A DNA stretch of 64,000 nt from a virus, in IMG/VR virus record IMGVR_UViG_3300042894_002769, positions 1 to 64,000 of that record, one strand, 5' to 3'. How positions within the stretch are numbered: the first letter of the stretch is position 1; every line of letters starts with the position of its first letter. The notes beneath the pieces are model-generated. The model was given only the letters and a program-made list of their open reading frames with translations, was not told the DNA's origin and made no database searches. Made by a program: the position numbers and the translations under genes. Shown here piece by piece: positions 31,409 to 62,864 of the stretch.

Positions 31409-31471
31409 TGGTCAGTTATGAGGGACTTGCACCCCCGACCTCAGCGCTCTACCAAACTGAGCTAATAACTG
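31409..31471 (-). ncRNA. tRNA-like RNA lacking the anticodon arm
   Basis: CAGTTAT-TA-GCTC AGTTTGGTA GAGC-G-CTG-AGGTC-GGGGG TGCAAGT CCCTC-ATAACTG-A-CCA: intact acceptor stem, D arm, T arm and CCA; only 3 nt where the 17-nt anticodon arm belongs. Confidence 0.85.
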
Positions 31472-32724: not shown

Positions 32725-32748
32725 AAAGTCCCTAGTTAGTTTAGAAGT

Positions 32749-32894
32749 TGATAGTTGCTGGTACTGAACTCCGGCTTGTGGTGCTGTTTAACACACGCTT
32801 ACTCTTTCGAGATAGTTACCCCTACAGTAACACTCCACTAGGCTTTTGGGCTTCTACCCCGTTCCATAGCATATCAGCCTATGCTTTAACTATC
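32749..32894 (-). ncRNA. Structured RNA with closing helix and loop-loop pseudoknot upstream of phoH
   Basis: Closing helix UGAUAGUU/AACUAUCA; hairpin GCAUA-GGCUGA-UAUGC whose loop can pair with UCAGU in the loop of the 3' hairpin GCCGG-AGUUCAGUA-CCAGC. Confidence 0.6.
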
Positions 32895-32983
32895 ACGCAT
32901 GCCAACTGGTATGCAATTAGCATGCGTGATAATACTTAGCACATTGCGGAAAACGTATATATCCATTAACCGCATGTGCAATT

Positions 32984-33090
32984 TTGTCATTTACCCAATG
33001 GGAATTGAACCCATAATTTATCATAAATATCGTGTCGCGCTTGATAAGATATGATTTGGTTTACCTAGTTTAACCTATAGGTTTATCACA
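32984..33090 (-). ncRNA. tRNA-like RNA with enlarged anticodon arm and no CCA
   Basis: ACCTA-TA-GGTT AAACTAGGTA AACC ... ATGGG TTCAATT CCCAT-TGGGT: D and T arms clear; ~36-nt bulged arm in place of the anticodon arm. Confidence 0.65.
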
Positions 33091-33097
33091 AGGTTTT

Positions 33098-33127
33098 ATC
33101 TTACTGCTGGTTTAGGGCGCTTGTCAA
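33098..33127 (-). promoter_or_regulatory. Sigma70-like promoter driving the tRNA-like/ncRNA/phoH transcript
   Basis: TTGACA-18-TAAGAT. Confidence 0.65.
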
Positions 33128-33282
33128 TACTGTTTGCGATTAGTTGCTAAAATACCTGTCACAATGATATGAACAAGTCCTAGCGTACTGATGCACAAAA
33201 ATAAAATATTGCGAAAATCGTTATAATTTTGTGACCAATTATGCGTGTGGTGATTTTCATGTGGAATTCTCACAAGGAGTTT

Positions 33283-42780: not shown

Positions 42781-42926
42781 AGAAAATTCGCAAAAGATAC
42801 AAAACACTACGAATTTACGAATCGGATTACCCCAATTTGTTAAAAATTAAAAAATCTCTTAATTTACCTTCGCTATCGGACGCACTGCGATTTGCAATCA
42901 GTACCACTATGGAAATGCGGAAATGA
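42777..42926 (+). CDS. 49-aa ribbon-helix-helix-like DNA-binding protein
   Basis: MKKIRKRYKTLRIYESDYPNLLKIKKSLNLPSLSDALRFAI...; ATGA overlaps with both neighbours; below track cutoff. Confidence 0.65.
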   Translation: MKKIRKRYKTLRIYESDYPNLLKIKKSLNLPSLSDALRFAISTTMEMRK

Positions 42927-45502
42927 ATGACCAACTTAACAATTTGCCGCAAGAATTACGACTATTGCCACAATGGTGCTACACGTCACCTGACCGCAAT
43001 GGTAAATACAAAATTCCAATGGGTAGAAATAAAACCTATGCTGCGAGCAATGACCCCGATACATGGTTAACCTTTGAAGATGCAGTTAGCCTGTCTGAAG
43101 GAAAACCTATTGGCTTTATGCTGTCAGCTAATGACCCCTATGCTGTGATAGACATTGATACGGGATATGCGTTTTGCGATATTGCAGGACAATTGCAACC
43201 CGACTTAGCCTTAATGCGCTATGAGTTTCATCAGCGATTATTGTCGTATTTGAATACCACGCCTACTTATAGCGAGATTACGCTGTCAGGCTACAATTAT
43301 CACACTTGGCATCGATTGCTTGATATGTCGGAGATATTTGCAGGGATTCGTGTATCGAGAATGCCTATTAAATTGCCTGATGGAACGCACCATACGCTTG
43401 ATAATGCGGGGATTGAAATTTACTCTAAGGAGCGATTTATTGTCTGCACGGGTAATTCGATTTCACTAGATACCATTAGCCTTGCGTCTACTGAGTTTTA
43501 TACGTTTTTGGAAAAAGCGCGTAAATTGACGACAAGAGCCGGTGGTAGCAAAGCCAGTGATTCTAAACCGCAAGTGGATACGGATGTGACCGTCCTGTCG
43601 AATTTACTGGGCATTGACTTTGATGAGGATTCTTATGTGAGAGCCATTGATGTTGTGACAGCAATTACCACTGAAGGCAATGCTTTTGAGGAAACCTATC
43701 GTGAGTTATTTCGCGGTGATATGACGGATTATCCATCGCAAAGTGAAGCTGATTATGCGCTGATAATTGCTATAGCCAAAATATCCCCTAATGACCCGCA
43801 GGTATTTAGGTTGTTTCGATTATCTGCACTGGGTAAACGTCCAAAGGCTATGGACAATGATGTCTATTTGCAACGCTCTGTGAATACGGCTAGAGCTGAG
43901 ATTAAGCGCGAAGAATCTGAAATGAATGAAGTGCGTGACTTTATCAATTCGACGAGAAAAGCCAAGGAGAAAAAACCTCAGCCTCGACTATTGACACAGA
44001 CTGCGACGAAATCTGCGATATTGGATGTACATGGTAAGCCACTAGTGTCTACTAGAGTACGTCAGCATAAGAAAGCCATTATGCCTGATATTTCGGATAT
44101 TGTGCCTGAAGGAACTGACCTCAAATTGGTGGGAACTGAAAATGAACTAGACTATCCGCCTGCCTTAGCAGGTGAGCATAGCAATTGGCTAATGGAACAT
44201 GCGCCACAACCAATGGCAGAAGCCTGTATTGTGAACACGTTGTCACTCTTGGCAGGTATTGGCGGAGCGTCGTATAAAATCAACCCCATTAGACCGACGG
44301 GTATTAACAGCTATTTTGTTTTGATGTCACTGTCTGCGACAGGTAAAGATATTTTGCATTCGGGCATGGGGTATATTAAAAAATCGATGGCAGATGTTGC
44401 GCCAGAATTGATAGATTTTATTGATAATAATCAATACAAGTCACAAAGTGCCATTATGCAAGCCATTGATGTGCATAAATTTGATAGCTTTTTGCATTTG
44501 ATTCCTGAATTTTCTAAATTATTGCATAGTGCAAATACTGTGTCACACTACGCAGAACTGTTAAACTTTACCTTATCGGCATATACGGCTTCGAGTGACG
44601 GTAATGAATTGCAAGGTGTGCGTAAGTCGGGATTTGCGACAGGTAAAGCTGGTGCAGAACTTAAACCAAGACCTAATGGCTTTGGGTATTCGTTTTGCGG
44701 TGAATGTACTGAAAATGATTTTAACTCAGCGCTCAATAATGGCATGCTAAGAGATGGCAAATTGTCGCGCTTTATCTGCGTTAGGGGTGATGACTATTTG
44801 ACCATTGGCAACCCCACAAATCCGCATTTACCGCCTAAGTTGAAACATAACTTAGCTAAAGCGATTAAATTTAGTGCTAGTGGTCAAAAAAGAATGATTC
44901 ACATGACCGATAGGGCGCAGCGACTTGACCAAGCATATTATGTGCTGATGTCAGATACGCTTAACCAGCATCGCTCGGTTGATGATGACCCTATGCGCGT
45001 TGTTTATAACCGCGCTAGGCTTAAAGTGTGGCGTGTTGCAGGTAGCCTAGCTATGCTTGAGAATCCTGATGCGCCTATTATCACAGAAGAACAATATTTG
45101 TGGGCAATGGGTCTTGTGAATCGTGATGTGTCAATAATGTCATACAAAATTATTAATCGCATAGTCGGTGATGGCGCGGATGACCATGACAGAATGGATA
45201 AGGTTAAGAGCCTAATTGATGATTTTACGGTTTATGGTTACACGCACAAAGAACACGACGTGCTGTATGGCAATGCGCTTGAGAAACATGGCGTAGTGGC
45301 ACGCAGGGCATTGCGTGAAAGTGTCAAATATTTGCCGATATTTAAAAACCCGCGCACGGGGAAATCGGATGTAGCTTTGATTGATAGTGCAATTAAAAAT
45401 CTTGTTTCAGAAGGCGTGATTAAATATTACGACGCTAAGGCAAGTAATGCTAATTTCGGTATTCGTACCGAGTGTTATTCACTGCAAGGAAAAGTAAAAT
45501 GA
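42923..45502 (+). CDS. NrS-1-like primase-polymerase fused to a DUF3987-like ATPase/helicase domain
   Basis: GFMLSANDPYAVIDID, YSEITLSG..YH, IEIYSKERFIVCTGN, SQSEADYAL helical bundle; Walker-A-like SATGKD. Confidence 0.85.
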   Translation: MNDQLNNLPQELRLLPQWCYTSPDRNGKYKIPMGRNKTYAASNDPDTWLTFEDAVSLSEGKPIGFMLSANDPYAVIDIDTGYAFCDIAGQLQPDLALMRYEFHQRLLSYLNTTPTYSEITLSGYNYHTWHRLLDMSEIFAGIRVSRMPIKLPDGTHHTLDNAGIEIYSKERFIVCTGNSISLDTISLASTEFYTFLEKARKLTTRAGGSKASDSKPQVDTDVTVLSNLLGIDFDEDSYVRAIDVVTAITTEGNAFEETYRELFRGDMTDYPSQSEADYALIIAIAKISPNDPQVFRLFRLSALGKRPKAMDNDVYLQRSVNTARAEIKREESEMNEVRDFINSTRKAKEKKPQPRLLTQTATKSAILDVHGKPLVSTRVRQHKKAIMPDISDIVPEGTDLKLVGTENELDYPPALAGEHSNWLMEHAPQPMAEACIVNTLSLLAGIGGASYKINPIRPTGINSYFVLMSLSATGKDILHSGMGYIKKSMADVAPELIDFIDNNQYKSQSAIMQAIDVHKFDSFLHLIPEFSKLLHSANTVSHYAELLNFTLSAYTASSDGNELQGVRKSGFATGKAGAELKPRPNGFGYSFCGECTENDFNSALNNGMLRDGKLSRFICVRGDDYLTIGNPTNPHLPPKLKHNLAKAIKFSASGQKRMIHMTDRAQRLDQAYYVLMSDTLNQHRSVDDDPMRVVYNRARLKVWRVAGSLAMLENPDAPIITEEQYLWAMGLVNRDVSIMSYKIINRIVGDGADDHDRMDKVKSLIDDFTVYGYTHKEHDVLYGNALEKHGVVARRALRESVKYLPIFKNPRTGKSDVALIDSAIKNLVSEGVIKYYDAKASNANFGIRTECYSLQGKVK

Positions 45503-57084: not shown

Positions 57085-57300
57085 ATGAGCAACAAAACTT
57101 TAGATTATCATGGTATTGTAATATCTGATGTCGAATCAGTTAATTTGACATCAGACAGTATCACAATTGTGAAATACAATGGTGATACTAACAAATATGT
57201 AAATACAAATAAGCAAACAGTACATTTACTTTCAGATTTATATTTCTCAGAACTTAGGTCAGCTCTAATCAATGATTGGTTTAGCAAGCTATGCGAATAG
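57085..57300 (+). CDS. Hypothetical protein
   Basis: Likely start MSNKTL after the terminator. Confidence 0.5.
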   Translation: MSNKTLDYHGIVISDVESVNLTSDSITIVKYNGDTNKYVNTNKQTVHLLSDLYFSELRSALINDWFSKLCE

Positions 57301-58181
57301 CCGATAAGACATTAAATGCTATCGACAAAGTAACATTTGAAACACAAGGTGGTAAGTATCGGGAAGCACTTAGAAAATGGCTACCTCAAATGGAAGATGC
57401 TTACCGACCACAAGAAATGCTGCCACGCGGTCACTTAGGTGCGTCTTTACTTGGCAGAGAATGTTCACGTCAATTATGGTATGGCTTTAGATGGGCGGTT
57501 TATCCAAAATTCCCAAGCCATGTGATTAGATTATTCAATACAGGTCATTTATATGAAGCACGATTTTTAGCATTGCTCGAATCAATTGGTTGTACAGTAA
57601 AACAAAGTGACGAAAAAACAGGCAAGCAATTTCGCATAAATCATGGCGCATTTTTAGGTGGTAGCGGTGATGGCATTGCTCTTGGTGTACCTGATGTACC
57701 AGCTGGTAAATGGTGTTTACTTGAATTCAAAACTCACAATGACGCATCGTTTACAAAATTGATTGAAAAAGGTGTGCGATACGCAAAGCCTGAGCATTAT
57801 GTTCAAATGCAAATTTACATGCGAAAAATGAAGTTATCGCATGCGCTTTATATGGCAATGAATAAAAATGATGACAAGTTGCATGCTGAGATTATTTACT
57901 TAGACCAATACGCTGCTGATTTTTATATCAACCGAGGTATGGATATTATTCATGAGAAAATACCAAAAAAGATTTCAAATAATCCCGATTGTTTTAATTG
58001 CGCTTATTGCACATTTCTTGATGTTTGTCACTATGGTACACCACCTGAAAAGAACTGTCGTACTTGCCGATACTCGCGCCCAAGCGAGGAAGTATCATCA
58101 TGGGTATGTGAGTATTACCGCGCTAAGTTAAGTGTCGATAGGCAAATTAAGGCATGTGATAATTATATGCCCATAACGTAA
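57291..58181 (+). CDS. Cas4-like PD-(D/E)xK exonuclease
   Basis: HLGASLLGRECSR.LWY.FRW, GSGDG, LLEFKT, HYVQMQIYM, CAYC...C, NCRTC. Confidence 0.85.
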   Translation: MRIADKTLNAIDKVTFETQGGKYREALRKWLPQMEDAYRPQEMLPRGHLGASLLGRECSRQLWYGFRWAVYPKFPSHVIRLFNTGHLYEARFLALLESIGCTVKQSDEKTGKQFRINHGAFLGGSGDGIALGVPDVPAGKWCLLEFKTHNDASFTKLIEKGVRYAKPEHYVQMQIYMRKMKLSHALYMAMNKNDDKLHAEIIYLDQYAADFYINRGMDIIHEKIPKKISNNPDCFNCAYCTFLDVCHYGTPPEKNCRTCRYSRPSEEVSSWVCEYYRAKLSVDRQIKACDNYMPIT

Positions 58182-58190
58182 GGATTTAAA

Positions 58191-59045
58191 ATGCTAGATA
58201 AAAAATTAGTAGTGACTTTTTCAGGAGGTGAAACATCAGCAATGATGACATATCATCTTTTGAAAAAATATAAAACTATGGGATATTCTGAAATAGTTGT
58301 TATATTTGCAAATACAGGTCAAGAAAATGAAGAAACTTTAATTTTTGTTAATAATTGTCAAAAAATATTAAAATTTCCTGTAATTTGGTTGGAAGCCGAT
58401 GTTGTGCATGAATTTAGAAAAGGAACTAAGCACAAGATTGTGAATTTTGAAACTGCCAGTAGAAATGGCGAACCTTTTGAAGAAGTCTGTAAAAAGTACG
58501 CAATACCGTGTCATACATCAAGTCATTGTACAAGAGAATTAAAATTACACCCAATAAAATCATATTTGCGAGAAATTGGATGGAAAAAAGGAATGTACGA
58601 TACGGCTGTTGGGATACGATTAGATGAAATGCACAGAGTATCCATAAAAGCTATGGATGAAGGAGCTATTTATCCATTAGTAGATTGGAAAGATACTAAG
58701 AATACTGTAAGAGCTTTTTGGGAAAAAATGCCATTTAGGTTGAATTTACATGAACATCAGGGAAATTGTAAATGGTGTTGGAAAAAATCAATGCGCAAAT
58801 TACTTACTATTGCCACTGAAAACCCTGAGTATTTTGATTTTCCAAGAAAAATGGAACAAAATTATGCAAAACCCCATAAACAATTTTTTTTTAGAGGTTA
58901 TAAAAGTTCAGATGACATTATTGAATTATCAAAACAGCCTTTTGAAAAGTTTACAGACAATTACCGTGTAACAATTGCTAATTTTGACCCAATATTAGAT
59001 GCCGCAGGTTCATGTAGTGAATCGTGTGATATTTATAGCCAATGA
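58191..59045 (+). CDS. PAPS-reductase/adenine-nucleotide alpha-hydrolase family protein 1
   Basis: VVTFSGGETS, FANTGQE, CTRELK, GIRLDE, YPL, GNCKWCWKKS. Confidence 0.85.
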   Translation: MLDKKLVVTFSGGETSAMMTYHLLKKYKTMGYSEIVVIFANTGQENEETLIFVNNCQKILKFPVIWLEADVVHEFRKGTKHKIVNFETASRNGEPFEEVCKKYAIPCHTSSHCTRELKLHPIKSYLREIGWKKGMYDTAVGIRLDEMHRVSIKAMDEGAIYPLVDWKDTKNTVRAFWEKMPFRLNLHEHQGNCKWCWKKSMRKLLTIATENPEYFDFPRKMEQNYAKPHKQFFFRGYKSSDDIIELSKQPFEKFTDNYRVTIANFDPILDAAGSCSESCDIYSQ

Positions 59046-59062
59046 TTAAAAAGGAACAGTAG

Positions 59063-59827
59063 ATGATACATGTAATTAGTTTTTCAGGCGGTATGGGTAG
59101 CTTTGCCGAAGCAAAGTCATGTGTTGATAAATTTGGTAAAGAGAATACAAAACTATTATTTGCTGACACGCTCATGGAAGACGAAGATTTATATCGATTT
59201 AAAGATGAATGTGTTGAGTTTTTAGGTTGTGAATTAATCACATTAGTGCAGGGCATGACACCATTTGAAATATTTAAAAAAGAAAAGTTTATGGGAAATA
59301 GTATGGTTGACCCGTGTTCAAAACTTTTAAAACGAATTCCATTAAATAATTGGTTTACTAAAAACTACCAAATAGATGAAGCACACATGCACTTGGGTAT
59401 TGATTATTCGGAAAGCCATCGATTGGTAAAAGTAAAAGAAAGAATGTCGCCATATATATATCGGTCTACGTTAGTTGAAGATGGGCGAATTATTAACAAA
59501 GATTATAGCGAACAATTCGGTATCAAACGTCCAAGATTATATGATTGGAAACTAGGTCATAATAACTGCGGTGGGTTTTGTATTAAAGCAGGACTTGGAC
59601 ATTACAAAGCGCTTTATGAAGCTAATCCTGAAAGATATAGAGAGTTTGAAAGTAAAGAACAAGAAGTCTACGACGTAATAGGCGCAACGTATCCGTTTTT
59701 AAAAAAGACGGAAAATAAAGTGCTTAGAAGATTAACGCTTAAACAGTATAGGGAAGAATTTTTAATGCAAGGTAAAGTAACAGCATTAGAAAGCCAAGAA
59801 TATGGCGGATGCGGTTGCGCAATCTAA
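59063..59827 (+). CDS. PAPS-reductase/adenine-nucleotide alpha-hydrolase family protein 2
   Basis: VISFSGGMGS, FADTLMED, CSKLLK, HNNCGGFCIKAG, GGCGC. Confidence 0.8.
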   Translation: MIHVISFSGGMGSFAEAKSCVDKFGKENTKLLFADTLMEDEDLYRFKDECVEFLGCELITLVQGMTPFEIFKKEKFMGNSMVDPCSKLLKRIPLNNWFTKNYQIDEAHMHLGIDYSESHRLVKVKERMSPYIYRSTLVEDGRIINKDYSEQFGIKRPRLYDWKLGHNNCGGFCIKAGLGHYKALYEANPERYREFESKEQEVYDVIGATYPFLKKTENKVLRRLTLKQYREEFLMQGKVTALESQEYGGCGCAI

Positions 59828-59836
59828 ATTTAAAAT

Positions 59837-61543
59837 TTGTTTACGGGCAAACAAATGAAAAAACAATTACGACCATATCAAAAAACTGCCAATAACAGTA
59901 TTTTTGATTATTACAGACAAGGGCAAACTGGAAATCCATTGGTAGCATTACCAACTGGGACAGGCAAAGCCTTGTGTATTGCTGCGCTAATTTCAGCAAT
60001 TTACAATAAGCGCAATACCATAAAAATAATTATGGCGACACACAATAAAGAATTAGTGTTCCAAAATTGGGAGGAAACGGTCAGCTACGACGATTCTTTA
60101 CCATTGGGCGTATATTGCGCAGGGCTCAATCGAAAAGAAGTGTCACAGATTACTTATGGTAGTATTCAGTCTATGTCATCAAAAGTATCATTATTTGGTC
60201 ACATTGACTTGATAGTTATTGACGAAGCGCATCGCATTTCAAATAAAAAAGATACGGCTTATCAAAAATTTATTACGGCTTTACGCGAAGTAAATCCAAA
60301 CCTTAGAGTTGTTGGCTACACTGCAACGCCTTGGCGACTTGGTGAAGGCAAACTGACTGATGGTGATTTATTTTCTGACATCACATGTGATTTAACTGTT
60401 GGCGATGAGTTTCTATGGTTCATTGAAGAAGGCTATTTGGTAGACATCGTATCCAAAGCAACGCAAACAGTTCTCGATGTGAGCGACGTTCAGATACGAG
60501 GTGGTGAGTTTGTACCATCACAGTTACAAAAAGCCGTAGACAAGCAAGAAATAACCTACAACGCACTATGTGAAGCACTGCCCTACATCAATGCTTTCAA
60601 TAGTGTGATTATTTTTGCATCAGGTATCGAACATTCCGACCATATTGCTGAAATGCTCAATTCTGAATTTGATATACCGGCAATAAGCGTTCATAGCAAA
60701 ATTCACGAAACTTTACGCGACGATGCAATTGAAAAATATAAATCGGGTGACTACAAAGTCATTGTCAATAATAATATTTTGACAACTGGGTTCAATCATC
60801 CTGAACTTGATTTGATGATTGATTTATCACCAACCGCATCTTCTGCGCTACATGTTCAGAAAAATGGCAGATTGACGCGACCATTTTATGCAAAAGAATT
60901 CGACCTAGACGAGAAAGAAAGTCGCCTAGCATCAATAAAGGCTAGCCAAAAGCCGTATGCAATGCTTCTTGATTATGCCGGAAATATCATGCGTAATGGT
61001 AAAATAAACGCACCGCGTATCCCAAGAAAAAAAGGAGATGGCGGAGGTGGTGAAGCGCCTGTTAAATCATGTCCCGCATGTTTGACTTTGCACCATACGT
61101 CACGAAGAATTTGTAACACTGAGAATATTTTGACAGGTGTAATCTGTGAGCATGAATTTGAGTTTAAAACAAAACTCACAGTAGAAGCAGCAAATGAAAG
61201 TGTCATCAAACGAAATGTCGAGCCTGTCATGGACTGGTTTCATGTGACAAGCGTGAGCTATGCTCAAAAAGTATCTACAAAGGATAAGAAAACACCAATG
61301 CTGGTTGTGACATATCAGTGCGCAATGAATCGTTTTTCAGAATATGTGTTACTTGAACACGAAGGATTTGCAAAATCAAATGCTAAAAAATGGTGGCGAC
61401 AACGTCAAATTGATGGAGTACCACCGATACCAGAAACTGTCATTGAAGCATTAGAACATAGCAGTAAGTTACTAACGCCTAAAATGATTTACGTTGAAAC
61501 AAATACGAAATACCCAAAGATAAAGGAGTTTGCTTTTGAATGA
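59837..61543 (+). CDS. SF2 DEAH helicase (RadD/YejH-like) with Zn finger
   Basis: LRPYQ, PTGTGK, DEAH, TATP, LTTGFN, QKNGR..R, CPAC; real start probably 59855. Confidence 0.9.
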   Translation: MFTGKQMKKQLRPYQKTANNSIFDYYRQGQTGNPLVALPTGTGKALCIAALISAIYNKRNTIKIIMATHNKELVFQNWEETVSYDDSLPLGVYCAGLNRKEVSQITYGSIQSMSSKVSLFGHIDLIVIDEAHRISNKKDTAYQKFITALREVNPNLRVVGYTATPWRLGEGKLTDGDLFSDITCDLTVGDEFLWFIEEGYLVDIVSKATQTVLDVSDVQIRGGEFVPSQLQKAVDKQEITYNALCEALPYINAFNSVIIFASGIEHSDHIAEMLNSEFDIPAISVHSKIHETLRDDAIEKYKSGDYKVIVNNNILTTGFNHPELDLMIDLSPTASSALHVQKNGRLTRPFYAKEFDLDEKESRLASIKASQKPYAMLLDYAGNIMRNGKINAPRIPRKKGDGGGGEAPVKSCPACLTLHHTSRRICNTENILTGVICEHEFEFKTKLTVEAANESVIKRNVEPVMDWFHVTSVSYAQKVSTKDKKTPMLVVTYQCAMNRFSEYVLLEHEGFAKSNAKKWWRQRQIDGVPPIPETVIEALEHSSKLLTPKMIYVETNTKYPKIKEFAFE

Positions 61544-61643
61544 AAAAATAGAAAAATTATTTTTAACCATAGTTGGCATTTTGCTAATCGCATTGGCATT
61601 TCAAATAATTTACATAGTGAGTGGTATGGTATGGATGGTTTAA
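61536..61643 (+). CDS. 35-aa membrane peptide (TTG start)
   Basis: AAGGAG RBS; MNEKIEKLFLTIVGILLIALAFQIIYIVSGMVWMV fills the helicase-DUF5664 gap. Confidence 0.5.
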   Translation: MNEKIEKLFLTIVGILLIALAFQIIYIVSGMVWMV

Positions 61644-62005
61644 AATACGATGATGGTAAAGCGCCTTTGCATTTGGTTGATATGGACGTATTGATTGATG
61701 TGGCAAATGTATTTGGCTATGGTGCTGAAAAATATGCCGAACATAATTGGCGCAAAGGTATGAAAATAACAAGGCTTTTAAATGCAGCAATGCGCCATAT
61801 TGCCGAGTTACAAAAAGGCATCGATATTGACCCTGAAAGCAATCACTCACATGCTGCGCATACTATTGCCAATTTGGTTATGGTGTCAGCATTACTTCGT
61901 GATATGCCAGAATGTGATGACCGATACAAAAAAATAGTTAAAAAAGAACCTAAGTCAAAATCTGACTGCGACCCAACTTGGCAATTCGACAAAAAAGGTA
62001 ATTAG
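61631..62005 (+). CDS. DUF5664 dATP/dGTP diphosphohydrolase-like protein
   Basis: KYDDGK...VFGYGAEKY..HNWRKG...AAMRH...DPES..SH.AH..AN. Confidence 0.85.
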   Translation: MDGLKYDDGKAPLHLVDMDVLIDVANVFGYGAEKYAEHNWRKGMKITRLLNAAMRHIAELQKGIDIDPESNHSHAAHTIANLVMVSALLRDMPECDDRYKKIVKKEPKSKSDCDPTWQFDKKGN

Positions 62006-62006
62006 A

Positions 62007-62864
62007 ATGAGCAAATCATCAGTACAAATGGTTAAGCACAGTGTCGCAGCTGATACAAAAATTGAAATTGCGACGTTAGTTATTCGCATGCCACGTTTAA
62101 TTTTGGCTCAATTCAACACGCATCGTATGTTTAGTCGCAGTGCGCAATCGTCACGCGCTATCCCAGTAAAAAAATTATTAGCTGACGTGTATGCAAATCC
62201 TTATGTGCCTGAGTTTAGAGAAAATGAAAAAGGCATGCAATCGAGTATTCTGATTAGAGGTTTTCGTAGAGCGCTAGCTAAGTTTTTGTGGCTTTCAGCT
62301 AAAAATTTTGCAGTATCTATTGCATGGTTACTGTCAAAACTAAATGTGGCTAAGGAAATTGCAAATCGTGTATTAGAACCATTTTCGTATGTCACAGTTG
62401 TTGTAACATCGACAGAATGGGATAACTTTTTTGAATTACGGGCGCATCCCGATGCACAGGCAGATATTGACCAAGTTGCTGTGATGATTAGAAATGCGAT
62501 TAACGATTCAAAACCACAAGTTTTGGCTATTGATGAGTGGCATTTACCATTCATAAGCGACTTTGAAGTTATAGAAGCGGTATCTTTAAAAGACTTGTTA
62601 AAAATGTCAACAGCACGTTGCGCAAGAGTATCGTATTTGACGCACGATAGAGAGCGCCCAACGCGCGAAGAAGATTTCGCATTGTACGCACGATTGATTG
62701 AAAGTACACCAATGCACGCATCGCCATGTGAACATCAGGCAACACCACTTGGGGATTTTGAGCCATTTGGTATAACGCATATTGAACACAGTAATAATCA
62801 ACCTTGGTCGGGTAACTTTAGAGGTTGGATTCAACATCGACAGTTAATTCAACAATCACAGTAG
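62007..62864 (+). CDS. thyX: FAD-dependent thymidylate synthase
   Basis: AQFNTHRMFSRSAQSSRAIP, ANRVLEPF, ARCARVSY, HASPCEHQA. Confidence 0.88.
   Translation: MSKSSVQMVKHSVAADTKIEIATLVIRMPRLILAQFNTHRMFSRSAQSSRAIPVKKLLADVYANPYVPEFRENEKGMQSSILIRGFRRALAKFLWLSAKNFAVSIAWLLSKLNVAKEIANRVLEPFSYVTVVVTSTEWDNFFELRAHPDAQADIDQVAVMIRNAINDSKPQVLAIDEWHLPFISDFEVIEAVSLKDLLKMSTARCARVSYLTHDRERPTREEDFALYARLIESTPMHASPCEHQATPLGDFEPFGITHIEHSNNQPWSGNFRGWIQHRQLIQQSQ

What the first reader, a model, noticed from the sequence alone, without database searches (positions are those of the whole stretch)
32984..33127. Second tRNA mimic: own promoter, D/T arms kept, anticodon arm swapped for a 36-nt bulged hairpin, no CCA
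Seen: just downstream of a TTGACA-18-TAAGAT promoter is a fold with D arm (GGUU/AACC, GG in loop), T arm (AUGGG UUCAAUU CCCAU), a long acceptor-like helix with symmetric mismatches (UUGU-G-AU-AA-ACCUA / UGGGU-AA-AU-G-ACAA), and an extended arm AUCAUA..UAUC-loop-GAUA..UAUGAU. With the anticodon-less RNA, the island holds two RNAs that keep the tRNA elbow but alter the anticodon arm in opposite ways. Inference: a family of phage tRNA-elbow scaffolds or decoys, or a processing signal for the long leader.
Basis: partly seen in the sequence, partly recalled or inferred. Interest (0 to 1): 0.72.

Follow-up and report, generated by a model that had tools for sequence, protein, structure and literature searches.

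The report
Lysine tRNA look-alike with hairpin insert
A lake-water phage carries a gene with the body of a lysine tRNA, but a 19-base insert in its codon-reading loop, a frayed end and no CCA tail mean it almost certainly cannot decode; it is most likely a decaying tRNA gene, one more case of the known but unexplained tRNA-like RNAs of phages.

Summary
On the minus strand (33091..32984), just after a TTGACA-18-TAAGAT promoter, lies a tRNA-shaped fold with all 30 proposed pairs standard. Rfam's tRNA model scores it 27.8 bits against a cut-off of 29 (E 3.6e-5 for the genome). 42 related phage records gave no sub-threshold match.

The arm is not swapped. It is a Lys(CUU)-type anticodon arm with a 19-nt insert after position 37. 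With the insert removed in silico, default ARAGORN calls tRNA-Lys(CUU).

The acceptor end has two A.A mismatches and there is no CCA, although both neighbouring phage tRNAs encode CCA. The phage encodes no splicing endonuclease, RtcB, RNA ligase, CCA-adding enzyme or Ro protein.

The element exists only in this phage population. Relatives with 68% PhoH identity have no tRNAs. One sister strain has lost elbow base G19; in another a low-depth contig splits the GG pair.

The "anticodon-less RNA" paired with it is a 14-nt deletion allele of a normal tRNA-Pro(UGG), which is intact in one sister strain.

Best reading: a non-decoding, tRNA-Lys-derived relic at the start of the phoH operon leader, possibly still an RNase P site. 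A selected decoy is not excluded. This scan has noted similar phage tRNA look-alikes on other DNA. No RNA data were available.

The parts
33098..33127 (-). Sigma-70-like promoter: -35 TTGACA (33127-33122), 18-nt spacer, -10 TAAGAT (33103-33098). A start is inferred near 33091.
   Evidence: Consensus scan gives 10 of 12 matches. In sister strain L005 both hexamers are unchanged, while the spacer carries 3 substitutions and a 1-nt deletion that shortens it from 18 to 17 nt.
33085..33091 (-). 5' leader strand UUGUGAU, which pairs with the 3' trailer (32990-32984) and extends the acceptor helix.
   Evidence: 6 of 7 pairs, P about 0.015 by resampling; the neighbouring tRNAs show 2 and 3 pairs.
33078..33084 (-). 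Acceptor 5' strand AAACCUA. The first two A's face A's on the 3' strand (A.A at 1:72 and 2:71).
   Evidence: Sequence; Rfam aligns only model positions 3-68; ARAGORN drawing.
33058..33077 (-). U8 and A9 followed by the D arm: stem GGUU/AACC and a 10-nt loop carrying A14, G18, G19 and A21.
   Evidence: Rfam alignment. G19 (33064) is A in L005/X5; one low-depth X13 contig has insertions at 33064 and 33067.
33020..33055 (-). Extended anticodon arm. Stem AUCAU/AUGAU; loop bases A32, U33, C34-U35-U36 (33048-33046) and A37; 19-nt insert UCAAGCGCGACACGAUAUU (33044-33026); then U38. Folds as 6 bp, a 3x2 internal loop, 4 bp and an 11-nt loop AAGCGCGACAC.
   Evidence: ARAGORN -i -ps calls tRNA-Lys(CUU) with a 19-nt 'intron'. 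With the insert removed, default ARAGORN calls tRNA-Lys(CUU). Fold. No 19-nt deletion was reported in any of the four runs laid.
32998..33019 (-). Variable loop AAAUU followed by the T arm AUGGG-UUCAAUU-CCCAU (U54, U55, C56 and A58 present).
   Evidence: Rfam alignment. The same T arm occurs in many unrelated tRNA-Glu, Val and other genes, so it says nothing about origin.
32984..32997 (-). Acceptor 3' strand UGGGUAA followed by the trailer strand AUGACAA. No CCA.
   Evidence: Sequence. Run X10 has G32988A, A32990G and A32992C, all compatible with the helix. L005 has U32993C, which breaks one pair.
32725..32983 (-). Rest of the phoH leader: structured, with hairpins at about 32978-32938, 32931-32891 and 32886-32869. 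No terminator was found before phoH (32724-32014).
   Evidence: Fold z-score -3.84 for the 371-nt stretch 33095-32725, which includes the tRNA-like element. No minus-strand terminator downstream of 33291 in the scanned region. Only 1 difference in 206 nt between the window and L005.

Best explanation
This is a tRNA-Lys(CUU)-derived gene that no longer works as a decoder: a pseudo-tRNA or tRNA-like RNA.

Shown:
- The body keeps the D, T and anticodon stems and the core tertiary bases.
- The anticodon loop carries a 19-nt insert after position 37.
- The top two acceptor pairs are A.A mismatches.
- There is an extra base or a mismatch at 26/27:43.
- There is no CCA.

Inferred:
- It is transcribed from the promoter at 33127-33098 as the first element of the long leader of the phoH / Tad2-like / tRNA-Met / tRNA-Pro operon, because no terminator lies in between.
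- The RNA is a relic of a tRNA gene that this phage lineage acquired and is now losing. The neighbouring tRNA-Pro, which has lost its anticodon hairpin in most strains, is going the same way.
- At most, the L-shaped body still serves as a host RNase P cleavage point, or as a structured 5' end, for the operon transcript.
For: - RF00005 scores 27.8 bits, E 3.6e-5 for the genome. Related phages give no such sub-threshold matches.
- ARAGORN calls Lys(CUU) once an insert is allowed, and at default thresholds once the 19 nt are removed.
- Both neighbouring tRNA genes encode CCA; this element does not.
- The complete genome has no tRNA splicing endonuclease, RtcB, RNA ligase, CCA-adding enzyme or Ro/TROVE protein.
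- The neighbouring tRNA-Pro(UGG) is polymorphic for a 14-nt anticodon-hairpin deletion. tRNA genes are therefore being damaged in this population.
- Sister-strain changes hit defining tRNA bases. G19 becomes A and the pair 33082:32993 is broken in L005, which lowers the score to 23.9 bits. A single low-depth X13 contig shows D-loop and variable-loop indels.
- Substitution density between the window and L005 is 2 in 112 nt in the element. It is 1 in 206 nt in the leader downstream and 9 in 129 nt upstream, so there is no sign of special constraint.
- The element is absent from the 68%-PhoH relatives, including a complete 57.8-kb genome, and from 42 TerL relatives.
- The promoter hexamers are kept while the spacer varies.
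- Published precedent for degenerating phage tRNA genes: bioRxiv 10.1101/2020.12.14.422802.
Against: - The damage is oddly selective. In the window's copy every stem pair of the D, T and anticodon arms and all core tertiary bases are intact. All the lesions sit where charging and decoding happen.
- The leader/trailer helix (6 of 7 pairs, P about 0.015) is not expected for a plain relic.
- The three X10 changes in the 3' strand all keep the helix, and the fourth adds a pair to the long arm.
- The insert is present in every strain laid, including the one about 11% diverged.
- Both damaged tRNAs of this phage are hit in the anticodon arm.
- No RNA data exist, so expression, processing and splicing are all untested.
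Confidence: 0.52

Rival explanations
1. A selected, non-decoding tRNA mimic. The RNA keeps the tRNA body so that it binds a tRNA-recognising factor: a host anticodon nuclease or other tRNA-targeting defence, a modification enzyme, or a phage protein. The rod-like anticodon arm and the closed acceptor end keep it out of translation.
For: - The lesions are confined to the decoding and charging parts while the body stays intact.
- The extended terminal helix is unlikely by chance, and the X10 changes preserve it.
- The insert is retained in all strains laid.
- It sits in the same operon as a Tad2-like anti-defence domain.
- Lysine tRNA is a known target of PrrC and PARIS, and phage T5 answers PARIS with a variant tRNA-Lys (PMC10264068, PMC11464382).
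- T5 RNA1 is an annotated stable tRNA-like RNA with an enlarged anticodon arm.
Against: - G19 is lost in L005/X5, and a low-depth X13 contig splits the GG pair. The elbow is therefore not under visible constraint.
- There are no homologues beyond one population.
- The partner 'mimic' is a deletion allele that is polymorphic in the population.
- A decoy for an anticodon nuclease would be expected to keep a native-looking anticodon loop.
Confidence: 0.2
2. A purpose-kept cis element of the operon leader. The tRNA-like fold is a recognition site for RNase P (and for 3' processing) that trims the primary transcript, or a 5'-terminal structure that protects the phoH operon mRNA from 5'-end-dependent decay.
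For: - It lies immediately after the promoter, so the helix would start at about the first transcribed base.
- No terminator lies before phoH.
- The rest of the leader is highly structured and conserved.
Against: - Relatives with 68% PhoH identity manage without it and share no leader homology.
- Pairing of leader with trailer and A.A mismatches at the expected cleavage site are poor features for an RNase P substrate (general knowledge).
- Nothing was tested experimentally.
Confidence: 0.17
3. A working tRNA-Lys(CUU) gene with a short intron at the canonical 37/38 site. The insert would be removed by an unknown host or phage activity, as proposed for the 'enigmatic introns' of Lak megaphage tRNAs.
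For: - ARAGORN places a 19-nt insert exactly after A37, leaving U33, CUU and A37.
- The insert-free form passes default thresholds.
- The base after the 7-bp acceptor is A; from my own knowledge this is the discriminator used by lysine tRNAs.
- Introns in phage tRNAs have been reported (Devoto 2019, PMC6784885).
Against: - The fold around the junctions is a 6-bp stem, a 3x2 internal loop and a 4-bp stem. It is not a bulge-helix-bulge motif.
- At 19 nt it is far too short for a group I intron.
- The phage has no splicing endonuclease, RtcB or RNA ligase.
- Two A.A mismatches at the acceptor end and a missing CCA stand against a working tRNA, given that the phage's real tRNAs encode CCA.
- AAG is the minor lysine codon, 107 against 536 AAA in 11 long ORFs.
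- Relaxed ARAGORN intron calls are common: 5 in 708 kb of related phage DNA.
Confidence: 0.07
4. A chance resemblance in AT-rich spacer DNA.
For: - The score is below Rfam's cut-off.
- Folding energy is not unusual (z -0.65).
Against: - E is 3.6e-5 for the genome.
- There were no sub-threshold matches in 42 related records.
- All the conserved tertiary bases are in place.
Confidence: 0.02

Closest known systems
Phage T5 RNA1 (NC_005859 30501-30644), annotated 'tRNA-like stable RNA with unknown functions'
   Same: - It is phage-encoded and lies in or next to a tRNA gene group.
- It is a sub-threshold match to Rfam tRNA: 24.0 bits, against 27.8 here.
- The acceptor, D and T arms are recognisable, and the anticodon loop is replaced by a much longer segment (47 nt in place of 7).
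- Its function is unknown.
   Different: - There is no sequence similarity.
- T5 RNA1 also has a 19-nt insert in the variable region.
- The T5 record annotates it as a stable RNA; nothing is known about expression of this element.
- This element has a mismatched acceptor end continued by leader/trailer pairing.
'Enigmatic introns' in tRNA genes of Lak megaphages (Devoto et al. 2019, PMC6784885)
   Same: Phage tRNA genes that bacterial-mode tRNA finders miss because of short inserts in the anticodon loop. The inserts are not group I introns.
   Different: - The Lak inserts are reported as conserved across cohorts and lie in otherwise good tRNAs of 540-kb phages.
- Here the acceptor end is also damaged, CCA is missing, and the element is confined to one population of a 79-kb phage.
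Degenerating 'pseudo-tRNA' genes of phages, such as Staphylococcus jumbo phages Madawaska and Machias (bioRxiv 10.1101/2020.12.14.422802)
   Same: Aberrant tRNA-like genes read as tRNA genes in decay, present in some strains and absent in close relatives.
   Different: Those were called by tRNAscan as pseudo. Their lesions are not described in the passage I read, so no structural comparison was possible.
Nuclease-resistant phage tRNAs, such as T5 tRNA-Lys against PARIS/AriB (PMC11464382) and anticodon-loop variants (PMC10264068)
   Same: Lysine-type phage tRNAs with altered anticodon stem-loops, in an anti-defence setting.
   Different: Those are working decoders with point changes. This element cannot place an anticodon at the right distance from the acceptor end, and probably cannot be charged.

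Membership tests
tRNA (Rfam RF00005), functional elongator | Score at or above the curated gathering cut-off (29 bits) | tested here: not met
   27.8 bits in the window and 23.9 bits in L005. Default ARAGORN finds nothing.
tRNA (Rfam RF00005), functional elongator | 7-nt anticodon loop on a 5-bp stem | tested here: not met
   26 nt lie between the stem strands: a 7-nt loop plus a 19-nt insert.
tRNA (Rfam RF00005), functional elongator | Fully paired 7-bp acceptor stem with a 3' CCA (encoded or added) | tested here: not met
   A.A mismatches at 1:72 and 2:71. No CCA is encoded, although both neighbouring phage tRNAs encode it. The phage has no CCA-adding enzyme; addition by the host could not be tested.
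tRNA (Rfam RF00005), functional elongator | D and T arms with the tertiary bases U8, A14, G18, G19, U54, U55, C56 and A58 | tested here: met
   All are present in the window's copy. G19 is lost in L005/X5.
Archaeal/eukaryal-type intron-bearing tRNA | Bulge-helix-bulge motif at the splice sites, and a splicing endonuclease plus ligase available | tested here: not met
   The fold is a 6-bp stem, a 3x2 internal loop and a 4-bp stem. PF01974, PF01139 and PF09414 are absent from the complete phage genome. The host is unknown.
Group I intron in a bacterial or phage tRNA | Self-splicing intron of a few hundred nt with the P1-P9 core | tested here: not met
   The insert is 19 nt, and there is no Rfam intron match.
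Y RNA-like YrlA (RF02553) with Ro/Rsr | Match to the YrlA model and a TROVE-domain protein nearby | tested here: not met
   No YrlA match at this site at E <= 10. There is no TROVE domain in the genome.
tmRNA | tRNA-like domain plus a tag reading frame | tested here: not met
   ARAGORN and Rfam find no tmRNA.
Phage attachment site carrying a tRNA gene fragment | An integrase in the phage, and identity to a host tRNA 3' end | tested here: not met
   There is no PF00589 integrase and the genome has direct terminal repeats. The 21-nt T-arm/acceptor word matches only assorted tRNA-Glu, Val, Ala, His and Gly genes of unrelated taxa.
Phage tRNA-like stable RNAs (T5 RNA1 type) | A stable transcript of defined size seen during infection | not testable with these tools
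   No RNA holder was listed among public runs, and only DNA contigs were available.

The most novel reading that the evidence does not exclude
Both damaged tRNAs of this operon are kept by selection as non-decoding tRNA bodies. They are the Lys-type gene with a rod in place of its anticodon loop and the Pro-type gene with its anticodon hairpin excised. Possible roles are bait for host tRNA-targeting defences or RNase P punctuation marks of an anti-defence operon. That would make them part of a wider, still unexplained class of phage tRNA look-alikes.
Probability: 0.15. Interest if true: 0.7.

Novelty: new member of a known kind. Interest (0 to 1): 0.36.

Why it matters
Phage genomes hold many tRNA-shaped genes that annotation tools skip or label 'pseudo'. 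Their role has been open since the T5 stable RNAs were described. This case adds a well-documented example with population-level variation. It also shows that one apparent 'designed' mimic, the anticodon-less RNA, is just a deletion allele of tRNA-Pro. That is a caution against reading function into every altered tRNA. If the look-alike were shown to be stable and needed, it would bear on how phages deal with tRNA-targeting immunity. On present evidence it is more likely a snapshot of tRNA gene loss.

Tried and rejected
- **Homologue searches.**
  - blastn against 50,697 phage records found no match.
  - Exact and gapped DNA patterns over IMG/VR found only the sister contig L005.
  - PhoH-anchored loci in IMG/VR and JGI metagenomes gave only 68% relatives without the element.
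  - Eighty TerL-anchored loci were fetched. Forty-two of their records were scanned with RF00005 and held no tRNA-like relic.
  - A genome-contig scan with the T-arm/acceptor word hit only unrelated tRNA-Glu, Val, Ala, His and Gly genes, which says nothing about origin or host.
- **Public runs.** No RNA holder was listed, so nothing can be said about expression.
- **The most diverged haplotype.** Run X13 is about 11% different over 32914-33224. Read laying printed only its best-supported differences, so its full sequence could not be recovered and no proper covariation test was possible.
- **A target for the 11-nt loop.** Its complement occurs about as often in the window as chance predicts: 18 against 12 +/- 3.4 with up to 2 mismatches.
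- **Readings rejected.**
  - Ro/Y RNA, tmRNA, integration site, archaeal-type splicing and group I intron: see the membership tests.
  - The plus-strand 51-aa ORF 32899-33054: it runs against the neighbouring genes, all on the minus strand, and I saw no support for it.
  - The plus-strand terminator-like call at 32998-33014: it is simply the T arm read on the other strand.

Full report
**Where it is.** The window is the first 64 kb of a complete 79,225-bp virus record with direct terminal repeats. The DNA is held by lake-water and freshwater metagenome runs. The portal and terminase proteins are less than 50% identical to those of cultured siphoviruses. The finding lies on the minus strand, in the 783-nt spacer between an unknown 258-aa ORF (34284-33508) and phoH (32724-32014). 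Downstream on the same strand come:
- a Tad2-like fusion gene;
- tRNA-Met(CAU) at 31558-31483;
- a 60-nt tRNA-like RNA at 31471-31412;
- a crAss001_48-like gene;
- terL.

A terminator at 33325-33291 closes the upstream unit. The scan found no minus-strand terminator from there down to 30500, the lower limit of the scanned region.

**Check of the observation.**
- the TTGACA-18-TAAGAT promoter;
- the D arm with GG in its loop;
- the T arm AUGGG-UUCAAUU-CCCAU;
- the long terminal helix with symmetric A.A, A.A and G.G mismatches;
- the 36-nt bulged arm;
- no CCA.

All 30 proposed pairs are standard, and the cloverleaf is within 0.2 kcal/mol of the minimum free energy fold. Folding energy alone is not unusual (z -0.65).

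Rfam's tRNA model aligns positions 3-68 at 27.8 bits. That is just under the 29-bit cut-off, with E 0.0079 in a 4-kb all-family scan and E 3.6e-5 for the genome. As a control, the same model over 42 related phage records returned only true tRNAs at E <= 0.001. The resemblance is therefore not chance.

**What it is.** The anticodon arm has not been swapped out. When inserts are allowed and thresholds relaxed, ARAGORN draws a tRNA-Lys(CUU) with these features:
- a 5-bp stem AUCAU/AUGAU;
- loop bases A32-U33-CUU-A37;
- a 19-nt insert (33044-33026) after position 37;
- U38.

With those 19 nt removed in a script, ARAGORN calls tRNA-Lys(CUU) at its default thresholds. The relaxed intron mode is not strong evidence by itself, because it made five calls in 708 kb of related phage DNA.

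Besides the insert there are three more departures from a working tRNA:
- A.A mismatches at the two top acceptor pairs;
- an extra base or a mismatch at 26/27:43;
- no CCA, although both neighbouring phage tRNA genes encode CCA.

The junctions do not form a bulge-helix-bulge motif, and 19 nt is far too short for a group I intron. The complete genome encodes no tRNA splicing endonuclease, RtcB, RNA ligase, CCA-adding enzyme, Ro/TROVE protein or integrase.

**Comparative evidence.** The element is confined to one phage population.
- The sister contig L005 (99% PhoH identity) has it with two changes: G19 to A in the D loop, and U32993 to C, which breaks an acceptor pair. Its score falls to 23.9 bits.
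- Laying contigs of four lake or freshwater runs on the region showed the same two changes in run X5.
- Run X10 has four other changes. Three lie in the 3' strand of the terminal helix and all are compatible with pairing. The fourth lies in the internal loop and adds a pair.
- Run X13 holds a haplotype about 11% diverged, seen in one contig of depth 2.9. It has 1-nt indels in the D loop, splitting the GG pair, and in the variable loop.
- No 19-nt deletion was reported in any of the four runs, so all appear to keep the insert.

Between the window and L005, the element has 2 differences in 112 nt. The leader downstream has 1 in 206 nt and the upstream spacer has 9 in 129 nt, so no special constraint is visible. 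The promoter hexamers are unchanged, while the spacer has three substitutions and a deletion that brings it from 18 to 17 nt.

Phages with 68% PhoH identity, one of them a complete 57.8-kb genome, have no tRNA, no tRNA-like element and no homologous leader. DNA-pattern and protein-anchored searches of IMG/VR, JGI metagenomes and GenBank phages found nothing else.

**The partner 'anticodon-less RNA'.** Run X10 carries 14 extra bases behind 31443. Putting them back gives a textbook tRNA-Pro(UGG) of 77 nt with CCA, called by ARAGORN with thresholds relaxed to 90%. The window, X4, X5 and X13 carry the deletion allele. The 'two mimics altered in opposite ways' are therefore one disrupted Lys-type gene and one recently deleted Pro gene. 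This weakens the family idea and shows that tRNA genes are being damaged in this lineage.

**Most likely mechanism.** I read the element as a tRNA-Lys(CUU) gene that this lineage acquired and that has lost decoding and charging ability. It is now carried as the first structured module of the phoH operon leader. Transcription from the promoter at 33127-33098 is inferred. A start near 33091 would put the extended helix at the very 5' end. Cleavage by host RNase P, or a 5'-end protective effect, is possible but unshown.

Several points stand against a plain relic:
- the lesions are selective;
- the 6-of-7 leader/trailer pairing has P about 0.015;
- the X10 changes preserve the helix;
- the insert is present in all strains.

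These keep a selected tRNA mimic (about 0.2) and a purpose-kept processing element (about 0.17) alive. A spliced, working tRNA-Lys is unlikely (about 0.07).

**Comparison with what is known.**
- Phage T5 RNA1 is annotated in NC_005859 as a 'tRNA-like stable RNA with unknown functions'. It behaves the same way in Rfam: 24.0 bits, with 47 nt where the 7-nt anticodon loop should be.
- Lak megaphages have tRNA genes with 'enigmatic introns' (PMC6784885).
- Staphylococcus jumbo phages have aberrant pseudo-tRNAs read as degenerating genes.
- Working phage tRNA-Lys variants that escape PARIS, and other anticodon-loop variants, give the defence context but are true decoders.

Earlier notes of this scan describe several similar insert-bearing tRNA look-alikes in other phages. 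None shares sequence with this one. I used those notes as leads only.

**Verdict.** This is a new member of a known, unexplained kind, and here it is most likely a decaying tRNA gene. A proper covariation test is therefore still outstanding.

Noticed in passing
window 31412-31471 (-), with run X10's insertion behind 31443: The 60-nt 'anticodon-less tRNA' is a 14-nt deletion allele of a canonical tRNA-Pro(UGG). The intact 77-nt gene with CCA is present in run X10. The deletion allele is in the window, X4, X5/L005 and X13.
   Followed up: yes
L005:976-1186 and L005:1646-2015 (corresponding to window 33224-33239 and about 32750-32778): The sister strain has a 200-nt replacement that encodes a small hydrophobic ORF. 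It also has a ~354-nt insertion in the phoH leader that repeats the motif GATAGTTAAA-stem-GGCTGA-stem with a different, compensated stem. The leader looks modular and recombining.
   Followed up: partly
window 32725-32983 (-): The rest of the phoH leader is highly structured (z -3.84 for the 371-nt stretch that includes the tRNA-like element). It holds a long hairpin of about 18-20 bp at 32931-32891 and further hairpins at 32978-32938 and 32886-32869. It is nearly invariant between strains (1 difference in 206 nt).
   Followed up: partly
window 33180-33260 (-): A possible 26-codon hydrophobic mini-ORF (MKITTRIIGHKIITIFAIFYFCASVR) lies between the upstream terminator and the promoter. I saw no clear ribosome-binding site. 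In L005 a different small hydrophobic ORF takes its place.
   Followed up: no
L008:3001-5560 (IMGVR_UViG_3300042346_000645): In the 68%-PhoH relatives, phoH is followed directly by a 598-aa ORF. The Tad2-like fusion, the tRNAs and the crAss001_48-like gene of this window therefore appear to be lineage-specific additions between phoH and terL.
   Followed up: partly
window 57291-62864 (+): The replication-side module holds two PAPS-reductase-like genes, a ResIII/DEAD helicase and a ThyX-like gene. Several large ORFs (for example 42923-45502, 859 aa) have no Pfam match.
   Followed up: no
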